From NCBI RefSeq assembly GCF_048403405.1, contig NZ_CP183129.1: DNA of 64,000 bases; one strand, written 5' to 3'. The notes under the pieces are model-generated. The model ran no database searches. It was not told the origin of the DNA and was given only the letters and a program-made list of their open reading frames with translations. Made by a program: the position numbers and the translations under genes. Shown one piece after another: positions 4,612-56,531 of the stretch (its first letter is position 1; each line of letters begins with the position of its first letter). The DNA is from Escherichia coli (GTDB taxonomy: Bacteria; Pseudomonadota; Gammaproteobacteria; Enterobacterales; Enterobacteriaceae).

Positions 4612-5133
4612 ATGTCAAAGCCAAAATACCCTTTTGAAAAGCGCCTTGAAGTCGTGAATCACTACTTCACAACTGATGATGGTTACAGGATCATCTCGGC
4701 ACGTTTTGGTGTCCCCCGAACCCAGGTCAGGACATGGGTTGCCCTCTATGAAAAACATGGAGAAAAAGGTTTAATTCCCAAACCTAAAGGCGTTAGTGCT
4801 GATCCAGAGTTGCGTATTAAGGTCGTGAAAGCTGTGATCGAGCAGCACATGTCCCTTAATCAGGCTGCTGCTCACTTTATGCTTGCTGGTAGTGGTTCTG
4901 TAGCCAGGTGGCTGAAGGTCTATGAAGAGCGCGGAGAAGCTGGTTTACGCGCGCTCAAGATTGGCACCAAAAGAAACATTGCAATATCAGTTGATCCAGA
5001 AAAAGCGGCATCAGCATTGGAGCTGTCAAAAGACCGACGCATTGAGGATCTTGAAAGGCAAGTTCGATTTCTTGAAACGCGGCTTATGTATCTAAAAAAG
5101 CTGAAAGCCTTAGCTCATCCCACGAAAAAGTAA
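4612..5133 (+). CDS. insJ: IS150 OrfA (InsJ), HTH DNA-binding protein
   Basis: 173 aa MSKPKYPFEKRLEVVNHYF..., recognised as IS150 InsJ. Confidence 0.9.
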   Translation: MSKPKYPFEKRLEVVNHYFTTDDGYRIISARFGVPRTQVRTWVALYEKHGEKGLIPKPKGVSADPELRIKVVKAVIEQHMSLNQAAAHFMLAGSGSVARWLKVYEERGEAGLRALKIGTKRNIAISVDPEKAASALELSKDRRIEDLERQVRFLETRLMYLKKLKALAHPTKK

Positions 5134-5981
5134 AAGTACTCAACGAGCTAAGGCAGTTTTATCCTCTTGATGAGCTTCTCAGGGCTGCGGAGATACCGCG
5201 CAGTACGTTTTATTACCATCTAAAGGCTCTCAGCAAGCCTGACAAGTATGCGGACGTTAAAAAGCGTATTGGTGAGATTTATCACGAGAATAGAGGCCGA
5301 TACGGATACCGTAGGGTAACGCTGTCTCTTCATCGAGAAGGGAAACAGATTAACCATAAAGCTGTTCAGCGCCTGATGGGAACCCTCTCACTTAAAGCAG
5401 CGATTAAGGTCAAGCGATACCGCTCTTACAGAGGAGAGGTAGGGCAAACCGCCCCTAATGTTCTCCAAAGAGATTTCAAGGCTACGCGGCCAAACGAGAA
5501 GTGGGTTACCGATGTTACTGAATTTGCAGTCAATGGGCGCAAGCTGTATTTGTCTCCAGTAATAGATCTCTTCAACAACGAAGTTATTTCTTACAGCCTT
5601 TCGGAAAGACCAGTGATGAACATGGTTGAGAATATGCTCGATCAGGCATTCAAAAAGCTTAATCCTCACGAGCATCCTGTTCTGCACTCTGACCAGGGAT
5701 GGCAGTATCGTATGAGAAGATATCAAAATATCCTTAAAGAACATGGTATTAAACAAAGCATGTCCAGAAAAGGCAATTGTCTGGATAATGCTGTGGTGGA
5801 GTGTTTCTTTGGAACCTTAAAGTCGGAGTGTTTTTATCTTGATGAGTTCAGTAATATAAGCGAACTGAAGGATGCTGTTACGGAATATATTGAATACTAC
5901 AACAGCAGAAGAATTAGCCTGAAATTAAAAGGTCTGACTCCAATTGAATATCGGAATCAGACCTATATGCCTCGTGTTTAA
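5094..5981 (+). CDS. insK: IS150 OrfB (InsK) DDE transposase, expressed by -1 frameshift from OrfA
   Basis: orfB frame is open from 5076 with no canonical start before 5376; slippery heptamer A AAA AAG at 5094-5100; catalytic domain in 5376-5981. Confidence 0.85.
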
Positions 5982-6023
5982 CTGTCCAACTTTTTGGGGT
6001 CAGTACACAACCGAGGCCAACGA

Positions 6024-6231
<208 letters not shown>

Positions 6232-6302
6232 GGGCAAGCGCGGGGATTTTCCCCGCGCATCTGACTAGCAGATTCATTTTCTCATGGCACCCCTTTTACA
6301 CT

Positions 6303-6476
6303 TCAGTTAGTGCATGTTTTTTTCGATGCACTAATAGAACCATCATTACAGACAAATTTGCCGCCTGCCGTACAGTGTGAGATCCCCCCTTTCGAACCAG
6401 AACAGGGTTTGCGCCCGGCATCGGCATAAAAGGAAACAAGCGTTCCCATAAACAAGATAAGTGCCAGTTTTTTCAT
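6303..6476 (-). CDS. ydcA: small secreted/lipoprotein-like protein YdcA
   Basis: translated by hand: MKKLALILFMGTLVSFYADAGRKPCSGSKGGISHCTAGGKFVCNDGSISASKKTCTN (57 aa); GGAGG SD. Confidence 0.85.
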   Translation of the reverse strand: MKKLALILFMGTLVSFYADAGRKPCSGSKGGISHCTAGGKFVCNDGSISASKKTCTN

Positions 6477-7439: not shown

Positions 7440-8441
7440 ATGAGTAAAGTTGGTATTAATGGTTTTGGTCGTATCGGTCGACTGGTGTTGCGTCGATTAC
7501 TTGAAGTCAAAAGCAACATAGACATTGTTGCTATTAATGATCTCACTTCCCCAAAAATTCTCGCCTACCTGTTGAAACATGATTCAAACTACGGACCGTT
7601 CCCCTGGAGCGTTGATTTTACGGAAGATTCACTTATCGTTGATGGAAAAAGTATCGCGGTTTACGCCGAAAAAGAGGCTAAAAATATTCCGTGGAAAGCG
7701 AAAGGCGCAGAAATCATTGTCGAATGTACTGGCTTTTATACCTCCGCCGAGAAATCGCAGGCGCATCTTGATGCTGGTGCGAAGAAGGTGTTGATTTCCG
7801 CCCCTGCCGGTGAAATGAAAACCATCGTTTATAACGTCAATGACGACACACTGGATGGCAACGACACCATTGTTTCCGTGGCGTCATGCACCACTAATTG
7901 TCTTGCACCGATGGCCAAAGCCTTGCACGACAGTTTCGGAATAGAAGTCGGCACGATGACGACCATTCATGCCTATACCGGCACTCAGTCACTGGTGGAT
8001 GGCCCGCGTGGTAAAGATCTACGCGCTTCACGTGCAGCGGCAGAAAATATCATTCCCCACACTACGGGGGCGGCAAAAGCCATTGGTCTGGTGATCCCAG
8101 AACTGAGCGGCAAACTGAAAGGTCATGCACAACGCGTACCCGTGAAAACCGGTTCGGTGACTGAACTGGTGTCTATTCTTGGAAAAAAAGTGACTGCCGA
8201 AGAGGTGAACAACGCGCTTAAAAACGCGACAAACAATAACGAGTCATTTGGTTATACCGATGAAGAAATAGTCTCTTCCGATATCATTGGCAGCCATTTC
8301 GGTTCGGTGTTTGATGCCACGCAAACCGAAATTACCGCCGTGGGCGATTTACAACTGGTGAAAACGGTCGCCTGGTACGATAACGAATATGGCTTCGTCA
8401 CGCAGCTTATTCGCACCCTCGAAAAATTCGCTAAACTCTGA
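7440..8441 (+). CDS. gapC: glyceraldehyde-3-phosphate dehydrogenase C (intact)
   Basis: 333 aa, NAD-binding GxGRIGR, active site [10 protein letters not shown]; uninterrupted frame. Confidence 0.9.
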
Positions 8442-8482: not shown

Positions 8483-9922
8483 TTAAGACTGTAAATAAAC
8501 CACCTGGGTCTGCAGATATTCATGCAGGCCATGTTTACCATCTGCGCCGCCAATACCGGATTTACGCCATCCGGCGTGGAAGCCTTGCATAGCTTCGAAG
8601 TTTTCACGGTTGATGTAAGTTTCACCAAACTTCAGCCCTTTAATGGCTTTCATCGCGACGTTCAGATTTTGGGTATAGATTGATGAGGTCAGGCCGTAAT
8701 CACTGTCATTCGCCATTGCGATAGCATCTTCCAGCGTGTCAAATGCGACCACCGGCAGAACCGGGCCAAAGGTTTCCTCATGCATAATCGACATTTCCTG
8801 GCGAACATCCAGCAGCAATGTCGGCGGATAATAATATCCTTTCCCCTCTACCGCTTTGCCACCCAACGCCACTCTCGCCCCTTCTTCTACTGCGCGCGCC
8901 ACTTTTTGCTCGACCCTTTCCAGCGCCGCGGCGTTAATCAACGGCCCCATCGCAATGTCGTTGCGTTCTGCGGGGTTACCAAATTGAACCGCCTGCAACG
9001 CTTCACCCAGCCGATTGACGAACTGATCATAAATGCCTTTCTGTACATAAACACGTTCTGCACAGTTACACACTTGCCCACTATTAATGACGCGTGAATC
9101 AACGATGGCTTTGACTGCCAGTTCAAGATCGGCATCGTCCATTACGATAGCTGGTGCTTTACCCCCCAATTCCAGGCACACTTTGGTGATGTTTTTCGCC
9201 GCAGTCGCCATGATCTTTTCACCTGCAGAGACGCTGCCTGTCATACTGACCATTGCGACCTTTGGGTTACCCGCCAGTTCTTGCCCAACGGTTTCACCAC
9301 GCCCCAGAACAAGGTTAAACACGCCGCGCGGAAGGCCTATTTCATCGACGATTTTGGCGAATGCAATCGCATTGTTTGGCGTAAATTCACTGGGTTTAAT
9401 GACAATGGTATTACCAGTCAAAAGAGCGGGAGCCATTTTGCGGGCAATGAGGAAGAACGGGAAGTTCCACGGCAGAATGCCGGTAGTCACACCAAGCGCA
9501 CGTTTAAACAGAAGAATATTTTCTCCTGGACGATCGCTTTGAATAATCTCGCCCTCGTAACGCCGTGCCCACTCCGCCATGTAATCGATATAGTCCGCAG
9601 TAAAAGCCACTTCGACTTCAGCCAGCTGCTGGATCTTGCCCCCTTCTTCAACAATCAGCGCACTGATTTCACTGGCGCGTTCGCGGATCCCGACGGAGAT
9701 TTTGCGCAACCAACTGGCGCGTTCAATAGCAGGCAACGCTTCCCATTCTGGTTGTGCACGTTCTGCTGCATCGATTGCCTTACGGGCATCCTCGGCCTGA
9801 CCATCGGGAATGCGGGAAATGACAGCCTCTGTAGCAGGGTTTACCACATCAATCCATGCGTCTCCACGCCAGGTAACAAACTGTCCATCAATATACATAG
9901 GATGTTGAACGGGTACTGACAT
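8483..9922 (-). CDS. aldA: lactaldehyde dehydrogenase (NAD-dependent aldehyde dehydrogenase A)
   Basis: 479 aa aldehyde dehydrogenase; synteny. Confidence 0.95.
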   Translation of the reverse strand: MSVPVQHPMYIDGQFVTWRGDAWIDVVNPATEAVISRIPDGQAEDARKAIDAAERAQPEWEALPAIERASWLRKISVGIRERASEISALIVEEGGKIQQLAEVEVAFTADYIDYMAEWARRYEGEIIQSDRPGENILLFKRALGVTTGILPWNFPFFLIARKMAPALLTGNTIVIKPSEFTPNNAIAFAKIVDEIGLPRGVFNLVLGRGETVGQELAGNPKVAMVSMTGSVSAGEKIMATAAKNITKVCLELGGKAPAIVMDDADLELAVKAIVDSRVINSGQVCNCAERVYVQKGIYDQFVNRLGEALQAVQFGNPAERNDIAMGPLINAAALERVEQKVARAVEEGARVALGGKAVEGKGYYYPPTLLLDVRQEMSIMHEETFGPVLPVVAFDTLEDAIAMANDSDYGLTSSIYTQNLNVAMKAIKGLKFGETYINRENFEAMQGFHAGWRKSGIGGADGKHGLHEYLQTQVVYLQS

Positions 9923-10118
9923 GAGCGGCTCCTGTGATTTATATGTTTGTTTTTGGTAAATACATTGTTAATTAACATCAATCATCAGAGAGACGGCATC
10001 ATGAAAGGACAATTCTGTGAAGGGCTTCATAAAAACAAGTGTAAAAGGAATAAGAGGCAGAAATAAAAGGCAGGAGTTATGCCCGTTTGCAAACAAGTGG
10101 TTCACAAACGGGCAATTT

Positions 10119-10919
10119 TTAACGTAACGAGCGACTTTCCATCGCCTCGATGAGCACCGCATCGTGTTTCAGCGTTTGCCATGCATGGATGACTTCTGCC
10201 GGAAAATCAACGTGAACGATAAAATCTCGCCCGCGGGGACCGTAGCCATCGCTATCATCGCGTAAACGCGGCAGCTCGCCAGTGAGTAGTGAGAGATAAC
10301 GCTCAACCGGCCATAATCCTTGCAACGGATTAACAAAGATTACACTGTCTGCGTTGTTTCCTAGCTGAGGAACGAATCCGGGATAACTTAACCAGCGAGG
10401 TGCATCTGGATTGTCCCCGGTCATACGGCGGAACGTCGCCATCGTGCGCCGCTGCATGGTGGGGTCCTGAACAACGATAGCCGTATGAACTCGTTCTACG
10501 GCCTGATTCAATAGCGCGATGCTAAAGCGTGCGTTTTCACCGCAGTTTGTTGACTGGTCTTCAATCCAGATTTTTTCATGCGGAATATGCCAGAACTGAT
10601 GAGCGATATCGGCCAGGATGGTGGCTTCTGCTCTGCCAGTGGTGCGGATAGTGTTGTAGTGCGGATGCTGTGCGATAGCGCTATACAAAAAAGTTGTCGA
10701 GTGACCGATACCACCACTAATCAGTAGAGGAATTTGCTGATCGCGGGCAATCTTACATGCCGCATCGATAGTCGGCATAACCGCATTGCCTGCAAGGATC
10801 ACGCAATCGGCCTGATACGGCATCTCACCGGAGAAATCATCCTGCGCCAGCCACTGTCCGATAACATTTATGGCATCTATAGTTGCCGTCGAAAGCGTCG
10901 GAAACGGGGTAATGTTCAT
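10119..10919 (-). CDS. ydcF: DUF218-domain protein YdcF
   Basis: 266 aa matches YdcF. Confidence 0.9.
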
Positions 10920-11034
10920 GGTTCCTCCTTATCGTTCCCTTAAGAATACTGCGTGAGATAATAATGAGAAGCGGAGCACTCTGAAAGGAAGATGATGCTT
11001 TTTCTACCTCGCCATCGCGAACCAGACACTGGTT

Positions 11035-11412
11035 TTAGTCATACTGTATTTGCGGAGAAACTGTTGATAAAACATCAATAACATCATTTGACGTGGCAAT
11101 GACATAATGCTCGATCACATTATTTTTATAAATTTCACAACTTTGCATAGTAAACCATGCAAAGTAGGCGGAATTCACTACTCTATAGATCCCCGTTTGG
11201 TTAATACCGTGAATTCCTGACATTCCTAACAAATCACCTTCGTCAGTAACACGAAATGAATGTATCCAGTCAAATGATAACTTAACTTCTGACTTGATCG
11301 CCGGACATATGAGGGTAAGTTCAAGCCTGGCATTTTTATAGCTTAAATCTGATAGTTCGGCATTTTTAAAAGACAATGAAGTCGGAGTGATATTTATAAA
11401 ACATTCATCCAT
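11035..11412 (-). CDS. hypothetical small protein (islet ORF-A, 125 aa)
   Basis: ATG preceded by AGGGG SD; very AT-rich; no TM segment or recognised motif. Confidence 0.55.
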   Translation of the reverse strand: MDECFINITPTSLSFKNAELSDLSYKNARLELTLICPAIKSEVKLSFDWIHSFRVTDEGDLLGMSGIHGINQTGIYRVVNSAYFAWFTMQSCEIYKNNVIEHYVIATSNDVIDVLSTVSPQIQYD

Positions 11413-11531
11413 GTTAATACCCCTTCATATATGAGACTGCTCTCGATAGACGACACATTAACCTTCTGCAAAAACGGTGCGAGTCTGTTTACGTACCATG
11501 TATAATCGATGGACATTACTGTGATTTGAAA

Positions 11532-11981
11532 TTACCTTGTCCAGTCATCAACCATTTTTTTCAGGGGGAACATCTGCAATACATTCATTAATGCGAAATA
11601 TAATTCCCCCTGTGGCACCAATATTCTAATCTTCTCATCCCCTAAAATGAAAAATTGCAATTGACGTTTGAAACCTAATGTTTTATCTTCAGGTAATTCA
11701 GCTTGTATTTTTTTATTGATATCATCAAGGTAGATGTGATGACAATACTCATCAAACATACTCATTACTTCCAGACCGTTTACAGATGTCCATCTTTGTT
11801 CACTTTCCCAATAAACAAGAACCGGTTTGCGGCAGGTATATCTGCCTAAAAAGCGCTGAATGTGTTCTTCCTGATTCTCGTAAAATATTGCCTCTGCATT
11901 CGAGATTTGCCGACGCATTCGCCAGCGGATTTTTTCTTCATAAAAAGACAATTTGTCGCATTTGGTATTACTCAAATTCAT
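11532..11981 (-). CDS. hypothetical small protein (islet ORF-B, 149 aa from MNLSNTK)
   Basis: ATG at 11981 overlaps the stop of ORF-C by 11 nt (coupling geometry); the track start is a TTG 9 nt upstream. Confidence 0.5.
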   Translation of the reverse strand: MNLSNTKCDKLSFYEEKIRWRMRRQISNAEAIFYENQEEHIQRFLGRYTCRKPVLVYWESEQRWTSVNGLEVMSMFDEYCHHIYLDDINKKIQAELPEDKTLGFKRQLQFFILGDEKIRILVPQGELYFALMNVLQMFPLKKMVDDWTR

Positions 11982-12360
11982 TGTCAACAACTCGCATGGT
12001 TTTAAATATAAAATTTAAAAAACCGCCAAACAAATGAAGTGAAATTTCATACTTCTTTGCCTTATAAACAATTACCGCATCTTTAATATTACCTGCATTT
12101 TGGTTATCTATAAGTTCAGCAATATCCATAACCTGCGATAAATGTTCCACTCCCGTAAACTCGAACCTTTTTCGTTCCCTTCCGGCTGTAAATTCATCAA
12201 CATAAAGTTCTGCCGTCAATATAAAATTATACTCGGTGTGGTGACATTCCATTCTGGTTTCTACTAAAACACCATCATGCCAGATAATATTGTCTAAATT
12301 TTTCATACTATTAATCCAATCCATTACTTTCTGATAAAATTTCCTCTGGAAGTTTTTCAT
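11968..12360 (-). CDS. hypothetical small protein (islet ORF-C, up to 130 aa)
   Basis: open frame with three candidate ATG starts (M1, M13, M19), none with a strong SD; AT-rich. Confidence 0.45.
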   Translation of the reverse strand: MKNFQRKFYQKVMDWINSMKNLDNIIWHDGVLVETRMECHHTEYNFILTAELYVDEFTAGRERKRFEFTGVEHLSQVMDIAELIDNQNAGNIKDAVIVYKAKKYEISLHLFGGFLNFIFKTMRVVDNEFE

Positions 12361-12537
12361 AGAAAGAGATTAAAGCCTGACCGACGCAATCAAGCTCTAT
12401 TATTCGCTCATAATACGATCTCATTAAAATATCATGCTTACTCATTGCAATACGTCCTGTTTACCATGGGCAGAGTATGAATGTAACTTATGTAAAATAG
12501 TACCGCCCTTGCTATTTTTCAGAATTCATAAAGAAAA

Positions 12538-12566
12538 AACCCGGCGCTAAATGCTTACCGGGTTTT
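12538..12566 (-). terminator. rho-independent terminator downstream of hrpA
   Basis: stem AACCCGG/CCGGGTT with 13-nt loop, followed on the minus strand by a run of 6 T; lies 25-50 nt past the hrpA stop. Confidence 0.75.
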
Positions 12567-12590
12567 AGATTTATCAGGCAAATAGCAGTG

Positions 12591-15500
12591 TTAACCGCTA
12601 ATCTGCTCCATCGCCTGCAAAATACGCTTATCTGAAATCGGATAAGGCGTACCAAGTTGTTGAGCGAAGTAACTAACGCGCAACTCTTCTATCATCCAAC
12701 GGATCTCTTTCACGTCTTCATCCTCACGACGTGCGGGCGGCAGTTTGTTGATCCATTGCTGCCACGCCTGCTGGACATTTTCGACTTTCAGCATCTGAGC
12801 ACGGTCGCGATGTGGGTCAACCGCCAGTTTTTCCAGCCGTTTTTCAATCGCCTGCAAATAACGCAGCGTGTCGCCCAACCGTTTGAAGCCGTTACTAGTG
12901 ACAAAACCGCGATATACCAACCCGCCCATCTGCGCTTTAATGTCAGAAAGCCCCAGCGCCATGGTCATATCCACCCGCCCTTTCAGACGTTTATTGATAT
13001 TGAACACCGCAGTAAGGATTTGCTCGACCTGCTTCGCAATATCCACCACCGTGTCGTTCAGTTCAGCGCGGACTTTTTCATGCAGCGCAGCAAAACCTTC
13101 TTCCGTCCAGACCGGGCCACCATTGGCGTCGATCAGTTGATCCACACCGCAGGAGATACAGTCGTCGATCAGCTCCAGCACTTTGCCATACGGGTTAAAG
13201 TACAGCCCCAGCTTGGCTTTGTTTGGCAACTTCTCATGCAAATATTTGATTGGCGAGGGAATATTCAGCAGCAGTAGACGGCGAAGACCGTTCCACATTG
13301 CCTGCTTTTGTTCCAGCGGATTATCAAACAGTTTGATCGCCACGCTGTCGCGTTCATCCACTAGCGCTGGCCACGCCTTCACTTTATAGTTGCCACGCTT
13401 CTGTTCGTAGCTTTCCGGCAGCTGACCAAAACTCCAGATATGTAAGCCGCTCTGCTCGATACCGTCATCCGCCACCGCAGACAGCGTTTCCTGCACTTTG
13501 CCTTTCAGCGCATCTTTCAGATCTTGTAGAGAGCGCCCTTCTTTTAGCTTCTTGTTTTTGTCATCCACCACACGGAAGGTGATTTTCAGGTGATCGGGCA
13601 CCTGATCCCAGTGCCAGTCTTCGCGGTCAACGGTGACGCCAGTCATCCGCCGTAGCTCTCGTTCAAGGCTGTCGAGCAACGGCAATTCCAGCGGTGTGAC
13701 GCGGCCTAAAAAAGCTTCGGCGTAGTTTGGCGCGGGCACAAAATTACGCCGTACCGGTTTCGGCAACGATTTAATCAGAGCAATCACCAGTTCGCGGCGC
13801 AGACCGGGGATCTGCCACTCAAATCCGCTCTCCTCCACCTGGTTAAGTAACGGCAGCGGGATATGTACCGTCACGCCGTCCGCATCCGCCCCTGGCTCAA
13901 ACTGATAACTCAAACGCAGCTTGAGATTGCCCTGATGCCAGAAGTTCGGGTAATCCAGCTTGCTGATCTTTTCCGCCCCTTCTTTGATCAACATGCTCTT
14001 TTCAAAGTTGAGCAAATCAGGCGTTTCGCGGCTGACTTTTTTCCACCAGCTGTCGAAGTGACGTGCGGAGATCACATCGTGGCTGATGCGCTGGTCGTAA
14101 AACTCAAACAGCGTTTCGTCATCCACCAGAATATCGCGGCGACGTGTTTTGTGTTCCAGTTCTTCCACTTCGGCCCGTAGTTTCAGGTTTTCACGGAAGA
14201 ATGCGTGACGCGTCTGCCAGTCACCTTCCACCAGCGCGTGGCGAATAAAGAGTTCACGACATAACGCCGGATCGATCTGGCTGTAGTTGACCTTGCGCGC
14301 GGCAACAATCGGCAAGCCATAAACAGTGACTTTTTCCGTTGCCATCACCGCGCCCTGCGCCCGTTCCCAGTGCGGTTCGCTGTAGATGCGTTTAATCAAA
14401 TGCTGAGCAACTGGCTCCACCCATTCTGGATCGATGCGTGCCGCAATGCGCCCCCACAGGCGGCTGGTTTCTACCAGTTCCGCCACCATTACCCATTTCG
14501 GCGGCTTTTTAAATAAGCCGGAACCGGGGAAAATGGAGAAACGCGCGTTACGTGCGCCGGTATATTCTTGTTTATCGGCATCTTTCATGCCGATATGGGA
14601 AAGCAAACCGGTCAGTAAGGCGATGTGAATTTCGCGATACTCCGCCGGTTCGCTGTTAACCGGAATGCCAAGTTCTTTTACCACCTGGCGCAACTGGGTG
14701 TAGATATCCTGCCATTCGCGCACGCGCAGATAGTTGAGATAATCGGTACGACACAGGCGACGGAAAGCGTTGGAAGAAAGCGCCTTTTGCTGCTCGCCAA
14801 GATAATTCCACAGATTTACAAACGCGAGGAAGTCGGATTCTTTGTCGTGGAAGCGACGATGTTTTTCGTCCGATGCCTGCTGTTTGTCCATCGGTCGTTC
14901 GCGCGGATCCTGGATGGAGAGCGCGGACGTGATAATCATCGCCTCACGCACGCAGCCATGTTTTTGCGCTTCCAGCACCATACGCGCCAGACGAGGATCG
15001 ACAGGCAATTGCGAAAGCTGGCGACCGAGCGGCGTCAGTTTATAGGCGCTGGCCTGTTCATCAGTGGTGATCGCGCCCAGCTCTTCGAGCAGACGCACGC
15101 CATCCTGGATATTACGTTTATCCGGTGCTTCGACAAATGGGAACGCGGCGATATCGCCCAACCCCAGCGCGGTCATCTGTAAAATAACCGAGGCCAGGTT
15201 GGTACGCAGAATCTCCGGATCGGTAAACTCCGGGCGCGAGAGGAAATCGTCTTCGGAATAGAGACGAATACAGATCCCTTCGGACACACGACCACAGCGG
15301 CCTTTACGCTGGTTGGCAGACGCCTGCGAAATGGGCTCAATCGGCAAACGCTGCACTTTGGTGCGATAGCTGTAGCGGCTGATACGCGCCGTACCTGGGT
15401 CGATAACGTATTTAATCCCCGGTACGGTCAGCGACGTTTCCGCGACGTTGGTCGCCAGCACAATGCGCCGTCCACTGTGCGACTGGAACACGCGGTTCTG

Positions 15501-24473: not shown

Positions 24474-25334
24474 TTATTCTCGCGATATACCATCCAACGT
24501 AGACAACACTTCCTCAGAAAGATGCAATTTTTCAGCAGCCATATTCTCCCGTAAATGCGCAACAGAAGACGTCCCTGGGATCAGCAAAATATTCGGTGAA
24601 CGTTGTAACAGCCACGCCAGCGCCACCTGCATGGGTGTTGCACCCAGGCTCGCAGCAACATCCGACAGCGTAGAGGATTGCAGCGGTGTAAAGCCCCCGA
24701 GCGGGAAGAACGGCACGTAAGCAATGCCATCGTGGGCCAAAGCATCAATCATTGCATCATCAGCACGGTGCGCGATGTTGTATTCGTTTTGCACACAGAC
24801 AATTTCGGCAATCTTGCGCGCCTCTGCAACCTGCGTCGGTGTGACGTTGCTCAGGCCAATATGTTTTACCAGGCCTTGTTGTTGCATCTCTGCCAGCACG
24901 GTCAGGCTGGCCTCAATCGATCCTTCCGCTGGGCCATGACCATCCCCCATCATAACGCGCAGGTTAACCACATCCAGTACGTCCAGGCCGAGATTACGTA
25001 GATTATCGTGCACCGCTTTTTGCAACTCTGCCGGAGAAAAGGCGGGCAACCAGGAAGCGTCCTCTCCACGCCGCGCACCAATTTTAGTGACAATTGTCAG
25101 GTCGTCAGAGTAAGGATAAAGCGCTTCGCGGATAATCTGATTGGTGACGTGCGGACCATAAAAGTCGCTGGTATCAATGTGATTGACGCCCAATGCCAGC
25201 GCCTCGCGCAGTACAGTTATAGCGACGTGGCGATCTCTTGGGGGGCCAAAAACCCCAGGACCTGCCAGTTGCATCGCGCCATAACCAAGACGGTTAACGG
25301 ATTTTGTACCGAGAGTAAATGTGTTGCTGCTCAT
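24474..25334 (-). CDS. ydbC: aldo-keto reductase YdbC
   Basis: 286 aa matches YdbC. Confidence 0.9.
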   Translation of the reverse strand: MSSNTFTLGTKSVNRLGYGAMQLAGPGVFGPPRDRHVAITVLREALALGVNHIDTSDFYGPHVTNQIIREALYPYSDDLTIVTKIGARRGEDASWLPAFSPAELQKAVHDNLRNLGLDVLDVVNLRVMMGDGHGPAEGSIEASLTVLAEMQQQGLVKHIGLSNVTPTQVAEARKIAEIVCVQNEYNIAHRADDAMIDALAHDGIAYVPFFPLGGFTPLQSSTLSDVAASLGATPMQVALAWLLQRSPNILLIPGTSSVAHLRENMAAEKLHLSEEVLSTLDGISRE

Positions 25335-25488
25335 CGCACCCTGCCCTGTAATAAAACGGATTAAGAAAAATCAGTATAGAAACGAAAAGAGATAAATAAT
25401 GCGAAGGCGTAAACAAGATTACTGGATGAGTTGCTCTATTGTCCTTGAAGACACCAAAACAAAACGCGTCAAGTACCGCATCCGGCAA

Positions 25489-25523
25489 TAAAAAAACCGC
25501 AACCTGTATCAGCGTTGCGGTTT
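25489..25523 (-). terminator. rho-independent terminator downstream of paaY
   Basis: stem AACCGCAAC/GTTGCGGTT followed on the minus strand by T-run. Confidence 0.7.
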
Positions 25524-25565
25524 AGGTATCACATGCTAAAAATTAGAACGTCCAGCATCAGGACG

Positions 25566-26156
25566 TTACTGTTTCGGTCGCAGATTCTCATCAAATACCA
25601 GGCGCTGCCTGCCAGGTTCAACTTCCCGCAATGGCTCAACTTGATGCAACGTCTGCTTACAGCGTGTCACCAGCACCTGGTACTCATGCGTACCCTGCTT
25701 TTTCCATGCCAACTCCTGCTCACTGAGTTCACGAATCGCTTTCGCCGGGCTGCCGACAATCAGGTAATTAGCAGGCATTTCTGCTTTGGCTTTCACAAAT
25801 GCGGATGCACCCACAATACTGTTCTCACCAATCACCGCACCGTCCATCACTACCGCATTCATTCCCACTAATGCATTGCGGCGGATAATGCAGCCGTGAA
25901 GGATAGCGCTATGACCAATATGCCCATCTTCTTCCACGACAGTATCCTGCTCGGGAAAACCGTGCATAACGCAATTATCCTGAATGTTCGCGCCATCTTT
26001 CACCACGATACGACCAAAATCGCCACGCAGGCTGGCATTTGGCCCAACGTACACGCCCTTGCCGAGAATAACATCGCCGATCAATACCGCTGTCGGATGG
26101 ACAAAACTCTCTTCTGGCACAACCGGAGTCAGGCCGTCTATCTGATAAATTGGCAT
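25566..26156 (-). CDS. paaY: phenylacetate pathway hexapeptide-repeat protein PaaY (thioesterase)
   Basis: 196 aa matches PaaY. Confidence 0.9.
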
Positions 26157-27088
26157 AACGCCTCCTGTTCAATATTCAAGCCGCCAAAACGTTGAAAATA
26201 CAGGCTTCCCGGCGCAGGCAATTCACCGACCGAGGTTTCACCTTTTTCACTAACGAACGCTAAAGCAGCAGGCGCTACGCGCTGATAAATGTTGATACAC
26301 AGCTGACGCGCCGTATGCCCTGCCCAGTGTGCCGGAAGCAACTCCTCCGGCAACAATGGGTCTTTAAGGACGACACGGCGATAAAAATGGATCAGTAAAA
26401 GCTGAATATGAAATGCCCGCTCCGGGGTTAACTCGTCTGCCGCCTCTTTTAACAGCGGCACCAGCGGGCGGAATGACTGAATAAAGGTTTCGTACATGGC
26501 ATTTTGTTCAGTTAAATGCCAGCACTCTTCTACTCTGGCACGCAGTGCTGCGCGAGAAAGCGCCAGTGGTATTTGCGCTTCAAAACAAATCACGTTATCC
26601 GCCACCCCCGCTTCATGCAAAAGTGTCTGTACATCCGCCAGTTTTTGCGACGGCGATGCCATCAGGCTGGGTGCCAGTGCGCCAAAACCTTGCCAGATCA
26701 ACTGCTTTTTGACATCAGCCAGCGTTGATTTATCTAAACCTTCCGAGAGCAACAGGAGCCATTTACCATCCCATGCAGGTTGCTCTGCGCGATAAATTTT
26801 ACTTTCTGCCCGTCGCGTCAGGCGCAAGCCTTTATCACTGAGGCTATAGAAACTGCGTCGCCCGATGCGGGAAACATCCAGCCAGCCTTCTTTATTAAGA
26901 CGAAACAAAGCGGTGCGCACGAAACGCTCACCAAATCCCAGCCCTTCCAGCAAAGCAGCCAGACTACCCAGCCAGATTTCACCACCACGATGGGAAAGCG
27001 AATCACCATACAGAGAGGAGATCAAAGATGTGCCACTGACCGGAACAGCGTTTACAGCATGTTGGATAAAAGTATCAAGTTTACTCAT
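26138..27088 (-). CDS. paaX: phenylacetyl-CoA-responsive repressor PaaX
   Basis: 316 aa matches PaaX. Confidence 0.9.
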
Positions 27089-44403: not shown

Positions 44404-44730
44404 TTAAAATTTTCGCACCCATTTACCGTTTATCCCTTGTACATATTCCCCCGGTTTGGCCCGAGCTACGAGCTTTTGCCCGGCGAGTTTCGCGATATCA
44501 TCTACCGACACATTATTTTGCTTTGCCAGTTGTTGGTAACTCGCTTTACGTTCGGCATTAATGTCGGTTACTAATTTCTCTGTTTCAGCATCCGTTTTCA
44601 GCGCAACCAGATAACCATAAAATGTTTCACCTACCCGCCCCTGAGTTCTGGCTTCATCCAGAGTCAATGCCATTACATTGCTGCTTACCAGCCCAACAAG
44701 AAACGCACAAAGAAGTAATGTTTTCTTCAT
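44404..44730 (-). CDS. ydbL: DUF1318-family periplasmic protein YdbL
   Basis: 108 aa from MKKTLLLCAF with signal peptide. Confidence 0.85.
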   Translation of the reverse strand: MKKTLLLCAFLVGLVSSNVMALTLDEARTQGRVGETFYGYLVALKTDAETEKLVTDINAERKASYQQLAKQNNVSVDDIAKLAGQKLVARAKPGEYVQGINGKWVRKF

Positions 44731-54904: not shown

Positions 54905-55420
<516 letters not shown>

Positions 55421-55427
55421 CACTAAC

Positions 55428-55452
55428 GCCCGCACATTGCTGCGGGCTTTTT
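55428..55452 (+). terminator. rho-independent terminator of uspF
   Basis: GCCCGCA-cattgc-TGCGGGC followed by TTTTT. Confidence 0.8.
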
Positions 55453-55595
55453 GATTCATTTCGCAAATGTGCTGACATTTTCCCCTCTAATCCGTACCAT
55501 ACACGCCACAGTTTTTATATCAGATTTCTTATGCTGGGCGTTCCGGCATGACGCATACTCTTCTGATGCCATATAACGAATTGAGTCGCTTTTAA

Positions 55596-56531
55596 ATGTC
55601 GCAAAATCAAGAAATTAGTAAGAAAGAACAATACAACCTGAACAAATTACAAAAACGTCTGCGTCGTAACGTGGGCGAAGCCATTGCTGACTTCAATATG
55701 ATTGAAGAAGGCGATCGCATCATGGTTTGCCTCTCCGGGGGTAAAGACAGCTATACCATGCTGGAGATTCTGCGCAATTTGCAGCAAAGCGCGCCAATCA
55801 ATTTTTCGCTGGTGGCTGTCAACCTCGATCAAAAACAACCGGGCTTCCCGGAACACGTTCTGCCCGAGTATCTTGAAAAGCTGGGCGTTGAGTACAAGAT
55901 TGTGGAAGAGAACACTTACGGTATCGTGAAAGAGAAGATTCCGGAGGGCAAAACCACTTGCTCACTGTGTTCTCGTCTTCGTCGCGGTATCCTTTATCGT
56001 ACCGCAACGGAACTGGGAGCGACGAAGATCGCGCTGGGTCACCATCGTGACGATACCCTGCAAACGTTGTTCTTAAATATGTTCTACGGCGGCAAGATGA
56101 AAGGTATGCCTCCGAAACTGATGAGCGATGATGGCAAACATATCGTGATTCGTCCGCTGGCCTACTGCCGCGAGAAAGATATTCAGCGTTTTGCCGATGC
56201 AAAAGCGTTCCCGATTATTCCGTGCAACCTGTGCGGTTCACAGCCTAACCTGCAACGTCAGGTGATTGCTGACATGTTGCGTGACTGGGATAAACGTTAT
56301 CCGGGGCGTATCGAGACGATGTTCAGCGCGATGCAGAATGTGGTGCCGTCGCATCTGTGCGATACCAACCTGTTCGATTTCAAAGGCATTACCCACGGTT
56401 CTGAAGTGGTTAACGGGGGTGATCTGGCGTTTGATCGCGAAGAGCTCCCTCTACAACCGGCGGGTTGGCAGCCTGAAGAAGATGAAAATCAGTTGGATGA
56501 GTTACGACTGAATGTGGTTGAAGTGAAATAA
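55596..56531 (+). CDS. ttcA: tRNA 2-thiocytidine(32) synthetase
   Basis: 311 aa with PP-loop SGGKDS. Confidence 0.9.

What the first reader, a model, noticed from the sequence alone, without database searches (positions are those of the whole stretch)
25335..25565. No ydbA autotransporter between ydbC and paaY
In K-12 a large IS2/IS30-interrupted autotransporter pseudogene (ydbA) lies between paaY and ydbC. Here the two genes are only about 230 bp apart, with a clean paaY terminator, so this segment reflects either the ancestral empty state or a precise loss.
Basis: established knowledge. Interest (0 to 1): 0.3.

Follow-up and report, generated by a model that had tools for sequence, protein, structure and literature searches.

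The report
Common ydbA deletion allele with scar
This E. coli strain lacks the large ydbA autotransporter gene between paaY and pdxI (ydbC). It was lost in an old 6.4-kb deletion shared by over a third of sequenced E. coli, so this is ordinary gene-content variation.

Summary
paaY (25566-26156, -) and pdxI/ydbC (24474-25334, -) are 231 bp apart, and no ydbA sequence occurs anywhere in the window.

- The gap still holds ydbA's last 9 nt with its stop codon, ydbA's own intrinsic terminator and the complete ydbA-pdxI spacer.
- A 15-nt degraded remnant of the ydbA 3' end abuts the paaY stop codon.
- Pseudocitrobacter faecalis has paaX-paaY-ydbA-pdxI.
- K-12, O157:H7 and other E. coli carry strongly diverged ydbA alleles at the same site.

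The missing 6383 bp comprise ynbG, the hairpin that natively follows paaY, the ydbA promoter region and nearly all of the 2020-aa autotransporter gene. The "clean paaY terminator" is therefore ydbA's terminator, inherited through the deletion.

The same junction occurs in 2040 of 5426 complete E. coli genomes. No IS element, integrase or flanking repeat is involved, which points to illegitimate recombination. Variable ydbA carriage has already been published. This is ordinary and of low interest.

The parts
24474..25334 (-). pdxI (ydbC), pyridoxine 4-dehydrogenase; downstream neighbour of the deletion
   Evidence: NCBIfam NF007695 at 558 bits. RefSeq annotates it as pdxI in near-identical genomes.
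25335..25542 (-). Complete ydbA-pdxI intergenic spacer, retained unchanged; presumably contains the pdxI promoter region
   Evidence: About 97% identical, with one 1-bp indel, to the spacer downstream of intact ydbA in PF9285 and K-12.
25490..25523 (-). Intrinsic terminator (10-bp stem AAACCGCAAC/GTTGCGGTTT followed by a U tract). By origin it is the ydbA terminator; it now follows paaY.
   Evidence: RNA fold gives -16.6 kcal/mol. It is conserved downstream of the ydbA stop in PF9285, K-12, O157:H7, U1 and N1.
25543..25551 (-). Last 9 nt of the ydbA coding sequence (ACG TTC TAA = ...T F stop)
   Evidence: Identical to the ydbA 3' end in every allele examined, and homology with occupied genomes runs uninterrupted to 25551.
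25550..25564 (-). Deletion scar: the 15-nt GTCCTGATGCTGGAC, a degraded remnant of ydbA nt -33 to -19 (GGCGTGATGCTGAAC), with an 11-nt gap between two AAC motifs
   Evidence: 12 of 15 nt match at the colinear position. This is the best forward-strand match in the whole 6.4-kb segment, though an equal 12/15 match occurs on the reverse strand. P=0.0003 for shuffles against the last 60 nt, and about 0.16 for anywhere in the segment on both strands.
25547..25567 (-). Small hairpin created at the junction (AACGTCC / GGACGTT, 7-nt loop) overlapping the paaY stop codon and followed by CTAATTTTTA
   Evidence: Listed by the terminator-like scan. It folds at -10.5 kcal/mol in the window's scar haplotype against -6.3 and -4.2 in the other haplotypes.
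25566..26156 (-). paaY, upstream neighbour; homology with occupied genomes resumes at 25565, 1 nt past its stop codon
   Evidence: TIGR02287 at 377 bits; junction alignment.

Best explanation
The window carries a derived deletion allele of the paaY-ydbA-pdxI locus. A single ancient event, not mediated by an IS element and most likely illegitimate (microhomology or slippage) recombination, removed about 6.38 kb. It began within 0-5 nt after the paaY stop codon and ended within the last 10-33 nt of ydbA. Lost were the small gene ynbG, the hairpin that natively follows paaY, the AT-rich ydbA promoter region and essentially the whole 2020-aa type Va autotransporter gene. What remains is a 22-nt fossil of the ydbA 3' end including its stop codon, ydbA's intrinsic terminator and the intact ydbA-pdxI spacer. 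paaY transcripts are therefore inferred to end at a terminator inherited from ydbA, and pdxI keeps its own upstream region. This regulatory consequence is inferred, not measured. The allele has spread to about 38% of complete E. coli genomes.
For: The boundaries come from comparing the window with a genome carrying intact ydbA (PF9285). Homology is continuous from pdxI up to window 25551, which is 9 nt inside ydbA, and resumes at 25565, 1 nt after the paaY stop.

The 13-15 nt in between align to the ydbA 3' end at 12 of 15 positions. That 3' end (...GGCGTGATGCTGAACTTCAAGAAAACGTTCTAA, encoding GVMLNFKKTF*) is almost invariant (at most two changes in 33 nt) in K-12, PF9285, O157:H7, U1, N1, an Escherichia sp. 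and Pseudocitrobacter (Monte Carlo P=0.0003 locally).

These terminal residues end a Pfam PF03797 autotransporter beta-domain (70.9 bits). They are coding sequence and could not have arisen from a pre-existing empty site.

Synteny supports an old occupied state. Pseudocitrobacter faecalis has paaX-paaY-ydbA (48.5% aa identity over residues 130-2020)-pdxI, and Escherichia sp. SCPM-O-B-8794 has a ydbA-like autotransporter upstream of pdxI. O157:H7 has ydbL-ydbA-pdxI without any paa genes. ydbA alleles within E. coli diverge to 77-85% nt identity at this same site, which indicates long residence.

The hairpin that natively follows paaY lies inside the missing segment (L001 18502-18470, -15.6 kcal/mol).

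The same junction is present in 2040 of 5426 genomes, and six diverse alleles share identical breakpoints.

No IS, integrase or flanking repeat is present. The longest k-mer shared between the two ends is a 7-mer located away from the breakpoints, and ydbA GC is 49.6%, close to that of paaY and paaX.
Against: The scar is short. Its similarity to ydbA (12/15, plus an 11-nt gap) would not be significant if any position in the 6.4-kb segment on either strand were allowed (P about 0.16).

Five nt (CGTCC) directly after the paaY stop match neither parent, so the exact breakpoints and mechanism are unresolved.

The scar exists as two haplotypes differing at 3-4 of 15-16 nt (570 and 1465 genomes). 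This is more variation than the flanks show and is not fully explained by a single event followed by neutral decay.

E. albertii has ydbL directly next to pdxI with no fea/paa/ydbA, so the deeper history of the whole block is not settled.

No phylogeny-aware ancestral reconstruction was done.
Confidence: 0.9

Rival explanations
1. Ancestral empty site: paaY and pdxI were originally adjacent, and ydbA was inserted later in K-12-like lineages.
For: E. albertii has pdxI without ydbA. ydbA is variably present across E. coli and lies in a known region of heterogeneity (PMC4951805).
Against: The empty site contains ydbA's stop codon, its last 9 nt and a further degraded 15 nt of a C-terminal coding motif that is conserved across genera. 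The terminator in the gap follows ydbA in every occupied genome examined. paaY-ydbA-pdxI synteny exists in Pseudocitrobacter. The segment has no integrase, flanking repeats or atypical GC. E. albertii lacks the ydbA terminator and also paaY, so it represents a different state, not this junction.
Confidence: 0.04
2. Recurrent deletion: the same junction arose independently two or more times at a hotspot, giving the two scar haplotypes.
For: Two scar haplotypes differ at 3-4 of 15-16 nt. The region is deletion-prone: there is an IS1-mediated deletion in PI24 and there are many partial ydbA remnants.
Against: Both haplotypes share the same breakpoints, the same 11-nt internal gap and the same non-parental CGTCC. 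The sites at which they differ are invariant in the E. coli ydbA alleles examined, apart from one in N1, so the differences arose after the deletion. Scar type and flank haplotypes appear in mixed combinations, for example in IDR19, which suggests recombination.
Confidence: 0.05
3. Assembly or sampling artefact: a repeat-rich autotransporter gene collapsed or was dropped from the sequence.
For: Autotransporter passengers are repetitive, and the ydbA segment gives a median of four matching places per genome.
Against: The identical junction occurs in 2040 complete (closed) genomes from many laboratories and platforms. The junction lies outside the repetitive passenger region.
Confidence: 0.01

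Closest known systems
E. coli K-12 MG1655 paaY-ynbG-ydbA-pdxI locus (b1400-b1406)
   Same: The flanking genes, their orientation, the ydbA-pdxI spacer and the terminator are the same at about 97% identity.
   Different: K-12 keeps ydbA as a pseudogene split by IS2D and IS30C, an 8.6-kb feature. The window has none of it except the last roughly 22 nt. ynbG and the hairpin that natively follows paaY are also absent.
The paaY|pdxI allele of B1-type strains such as O103:H2 12009, O111:H8 9662 and O121 RM8352 (phylogroup assignment is from my own knowledge)
   Same: The breakpoints, the 231-bp spacing and the retained ydbA terminator are identical.
   Different: The scar haplotype differs: GTCCAGATACTGAAC(A/G) in 1465 genomes against GTCCTGATGCTGGAC(G) here and in 570 genomes. 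The flanks differ by 2-4%.
Published description of the paa-ydbA region as a zone of heterogeneity in phylogroup A (Goldstone et al. 2016, Sci Rep, PMC4951805)
   Same: It reports variable carriage of ydbA, with full-length versions in about 42% of phylogroup A genomes, inside a variable fea/paa/ydbA block.
   Different: In the passages I read, that study is at the level of gene presence or absence. It does not describe the junction, the scar, the direction of change or the change of terminator.
IS1-mediated deletion at the same locus in strain PI24
   Same: It also removes ydbA, starting just downstream of paaY.
   Different: It leaves an IS1 copy, starts 40 bp past paaY, and extends through pdxI, ydbD, ynbA and ynbB into ynbC. 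The window has no IS and keeps pdxI and everything beyond it.

Membership tests
Shared E. coli ydbA-deletion allele (paaY|pdxI junction) | paaY and pdxI contiguous with identical breakpoints | tested here: met
   A 100-bp query spanning the junction is at least 80% covered in 2040 of 5426 genomes. Six diverse alleles align with the same breakpoints.
Shared E. coli ydbA-deletion allele (paaY|pdxI junction) | Retention of ydbA-derived 3' sequence (stop codon, terminator) | tested here: met
   Window 25543-25551 equals the ydbA end, and 25490-25523 equals the ydbA terminator.
Type Va autotransporter gene ydbA present in the window | Coding sequence with BigA_N / BigA_beta passenger domains and a PF03797 beta-domain | tested here: not met
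   tblastn and blastn find nothing in the 64-kb window. The reference YdbA from PF9285 does have these domains.
IS-mediated adjacent deletion | An IS copy or IS terminal repeat at the junction | tested here: not met
   The whole gap is homologous to ydbA-side or paaY-side sequence apart from about 5 nt. The contrast case PI24 has an IS1 at its junction.
Genomic island insertion or excision (site-specific) | Integrase, flanking direct repeats (att sites), a tRNA target, atypical composition | tested here: not met
   The segment contains only ynbG and ydbA. The longest direct k-mer shared by the two ends is 7 nt and lies away from the breakpoints. ydbA GC is 0.496 against 0.50-0.53 for paaX, paaY and pdxI.
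Rho-independent (intrinsic) terminator | GC-rich stem-loop immediately followed by a U tract on the transcribed strand | tested here: met
   A 10-bp stem followed by U7, -16.6 kcal/mol. The 106-nt region has a z-score of -3.47 against shuffles. Actual termination activity cannot be tested with these tools.
Known structured RNA in the gap (Rfam) | A match to any Rfam 15 covariance model | tested here: not met
   No matches at E<=1 in window 25100-25800.

The most novel reading that the evidence does not exclude
The deletion scar may not be inert. Its two haplotypes differ at 3-4 of about 15 nt. The window's haplotype perfects a 7-bp hairpin that overlaps the paaY stop codon (-10.5 against -4 to -6 kcal/mol). 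This could reflect quasi-palindrome template-switch 'correction', or selection for a new terminator close to paaY after the hairpin that natively followed it was deleted.
Probability: 0.08. Interest if true: 0.25.

Novelty: already known. Interest (0 to 1): 0.1.

Why it matters
It matters little beyond correct annotation.
- It shows that the paaY|pdxI arrangement is a derived and very common deletion allele (about 38% of complete E. coli genomes), not an ancestral state.
- The terminator behind paaY in these strains is inherited from ydbA.
- ydbA is an autotransporter decaying by several independent routes: IS2/IS30 insertions in K-12, a split ORF in O157:H7, an IS1 deletion in PI24, and this clean deletion.
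- The junction and its two scar haplotypes could serve as a simple lineage marker.

Tried and rejected
- **ydbA elsewhere in the window:** tblastn and blastn searches found nothing.
- **Rfam scan of the gap:** no matches.
- **Promoter scan of 25250-25650:** no sigma-70-like site at the tool's threshold, so the pdxI promoter is not located.
- **IS-mediated deletion:** rejected, because no IS sequence is present. The scar's TGATGCTG resembles the IS1 terminal repeat as I recall it, but by hand comparison it matches only 8 of 13 positions, against 12 of 15 for ydbA. The commoner haplotype fits IS1 even less.
- **Island insertion:** rejected. No integrase or att-like repeats, and normal GC.
- **E. 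albertii as an outgroup:** uninformative for this junction, because it lacks paaY, ydbA and the ydbA terminator altogether.
- **Kluyvera, Serratia and Enterobacter pdxI loci:** none shows any paaY or ydbA hit; Kluyvera has an MFS transporter gene just upstream of pdxI instead.
- **Literature search for ydbA as an 'inverse autotransporter':** nothing found. Pfam shows a C-terminal PF03797 beta-domain, so ydbA is a classical type Va autotransporter.
- **Exact breakpoints by microhomology:** three candidates were considered by eye (TAA, AAC and GATG). None reproduces the observed CGTCC, so this is left unresolved.
- **Phylogroup distribution:** it could not be tabulated, because the tools give no phylogroup or ST and do not allow lookup by gene name.

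Full report
**Observation**

The minus-strand ORFs at 24474-25334 and 25566-26156 are pdxI (the current name of ydbC; NF007695, 558 bits) and paaY (TIGR02287, 377 bits). paaX lies at 26138-27088. The interval 25335-25565 is 231 bp.

No trace of ydbA exists elsewhere in the 64-kb window, by tblastn with an intact 2020-aa YdbA or by blastn with the whole missing segment.

The window is 99.95% identical to E. coli TUM14771 up to position 55645. From 55000 to the end it is essentially identical to strain 4621.

**What is missing**

I used strain PF9285 as the reference for the occupied state, because its ydbA is intact (2020 aa).
- Homology with the window runs from pdxI up to window 25551, which is 9 nt inside the 3' end of ydbA.
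- It resumes at 25565, 1 nt beyond the paaY stop codon.
- The window therefore lacks 6383 bp and has 13 nt in their place.

The missing piece holds four things:
- ynbG;
- the AT-rich region upstream of ydbA (25% GC);
- a 13-bp-stem hairpin 30 nt downstream of paaY, which looks like paaY's native terminator;
- essentially all of ydbA.

YdbA carries BigA_N and BigA_beta domains and a C-terminal Pfam Autotransporter beta-domain. It is a classical type Va autotransporter.

**Direction of change: ancestral or lost**

Four lines of evidence point to loss.

1. The gap contains ydbA-derived sequence.
   - Window 25543-25551 is ACGTTCTAA on the minus strand, the last two codons plus the stop codon of ydbA.
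   - The hairpin and U-tract at 25523->25490 is the terminator found about 20 nt after the ydbA stop in K-12, PF9285, O157:H7, U1 and N1.
2. The 15 nt next to the paaY stop resemble the ydbA 3' end.
   - GTCCTGATGCTGGAC aligns to ydbA nt -33 to -19 (GGCGTGATGCTGAAC) at 12 of 15 positions. An 11-nt gap lies between two AAC motifs.
   - That is the best forward-strand match in the whole 6.4-kb segment, though an equal 12/15 match occurs on the reverse strand. It sits at exactly the colinear position.
   - Shuffled 15-mers reach this score in the last 60 nt with P=0.0003. The figure would be about 0.16 if any position on either strand were allowed.
3. The ydbA 3' end encodes ...GVMLNFKKTF*, which closes the beta-barrel domain. 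It is almost invariant across E. coli alleles that otherwise diverge to 77-85% nt identity, and also in an Escherichia sp. and in Pseudocitrobacter. A coding motif conserved across genera cannot have come from a pre-existing empty spacer.
4. Synteny places ydbA next to pdxI in distant relatives.
   - Pseudocitrobacter faecalis has paaX-paaY-ydbA-pdxI. PaaY and PdxI are 90-91% identical to the window's proteins, and YdbA is 48.5% identical to the PF9285 reference protein.
   - Escherichia sp. SCPM-O-B-8794 has a ydbA-like autotransporter upstream of pdxI.
   - O157:H7 has ydbL-ydbA(split)-pdxI with no fea/tyn/paa genes at all.

ydbA's position next to pdxI is therefore old and does not depend on the paa cluster.

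**Mechanism**

- No IS sequence, integrase or att-like repeat is present at the junction.
- The two ends of the segment share at most a 7-mer, and it lies away from the breakpoints.
- ydbA has ordinary GC content, 49.6%.

The most likely mechanism is illegitimate (microhomology or slippage) recombination. Candidate microhomologies exist, such as TAA or AAC at the paaY stop. However, 5 nt (CGTCC) match neither parent, so the exact breakpoints stay unresolved. This step is inference.

**Population picture**

| Query | Complete E. coli genomes out of 5426 |
|---|---|
| Junction-spanning 100-bp query covered at least 80% | 2040 (37.6%) |
| Some part of the ydbA segment present | 3155 (58%) |
| At least 80% of the K-12-type ydbA segment | 987 |
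| Window-type scar | 570 |
| GTCCAGATACTGAAC(A/G) scar | 1465 |

- Six diverse deletion alleles share identical breakpoints.
- The two scar haplotypes differ at 3-4 of about 15 nt, although the adjacent terminator is invariant.
- The window's haplotype forms a perfect 7-bp hairpin overlapping the paaY stop, at -10.5 kcal/mol against -6.3 and -4.2 for the others. I leave this detail unexplained. It could be neutral decay or quasi-palindrome correction.
- Other independent ways of losing ydbA exist: the IS insertions in K-12, the split ORFs in O157:H7, and an IS1-mediated deletion from 40 bp past paaY into ynbC in PI24.

**Consequences (inferred, not measured)**

- paaY transcription probably now ends at the junction hairpin and/or the former ydbA terminator.
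- pdxI keeps its full upstream spacer and remains separated from the paa operon by that terminator.
- The strain lacks the YdbA surface protein and the 21-aa YnbG.

**Comparison with what is known**

Variable carriage of ydbA within a heterogeneous fea/paa/ydbA block has been published for phylogroup A (PMC4951805). The junction is present in thousands of public genomes. The only additions here are the direction of change, the scar and the reassignment of the terminator.

**Verdict**

The interpretation resolves to loss, the biology is ordinary, and the interest is low.

Noticed in passing
window 32284/32285 (paaG, minus strand): The window lacks 18 bp (six codons, in frame, near the N-terminus of PaaG). 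Its two closest complete genomes (TUM14771 and strain 4621) have these bases, and so did the 10 full-coverage genomes listed, one of them a K-12 strain. The deletion is flanked by GGCG-type short repeats and may be private to the source strain.
   Followed up: partly
window 55420-56531: uspF is followed directly by ttcA. There is no prophage here (from memory, K-12 carries Rac at ttcA) and no sitABCD island. The otherwise near-identical strain TUM14771 has sitABCD and phage tail genes after uspF, and diverges from the window after 55645.
   Followed up: partly
window 58405-58863: An IS200C-family tnpA lies between ynaL and zntB, according to the annotation of the identical sequence in strain 4621.
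   Followed up: no
window 62530-63984: A DHA2-family MFS efflux permease is annotated as frameshifted (pseudogene) in the identical sequence of strain 4621, next to an HlyD-family gene.
   Followed up: no
window 4612-5981: An IS150 (IS3 family) copy lies between trg and hokB.
   Followed up: no
window 44604-44611: ydbL is uninterrupted in the window, whereas the near-identical strain TUM14771 has an IS1A insertion splitting ydbL at this point.
   Followed up: partly
window 11035-12445: Three to four small hypothetical ORFs (one annotated as partial) sit between hrpA and ydcF. As far as I recall, the K-12 map has nothing there.
   Followed up: no
window 7440-8441: The gap (gapC) gene is annotated as an intact type I glyceraldehyde-3-phosphate dehydrogenase. 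From memory, gapC is a pseudogene in K-12.
   Followed up: no
window about 25465-25486 (minus strand): A degenerate REP-like half-site (GCCGGATGCGGTACTTGACGCG) lies just downstream of the former ydbA terminator. Escherichia sp. SCPM-O-B-8794 and Pseudocitrobacter carry what looks like a full REP-like palindrome at the same position and lack the E. coli terminator hairpin.
   Followed up: no
L091 (O157:H7 strain 4276) 8992-15385; L004 (E. albertii) 4896-6380: O157:H7 has ydbL-ydbA(two ORFs)-pdxI with the whole feaR-tynA-paa block absent. E. albertii has ydbL directly upstream of pdxI. The fea/paa block and ydbA therefore vary independently at this locus.
   Followed up: partly
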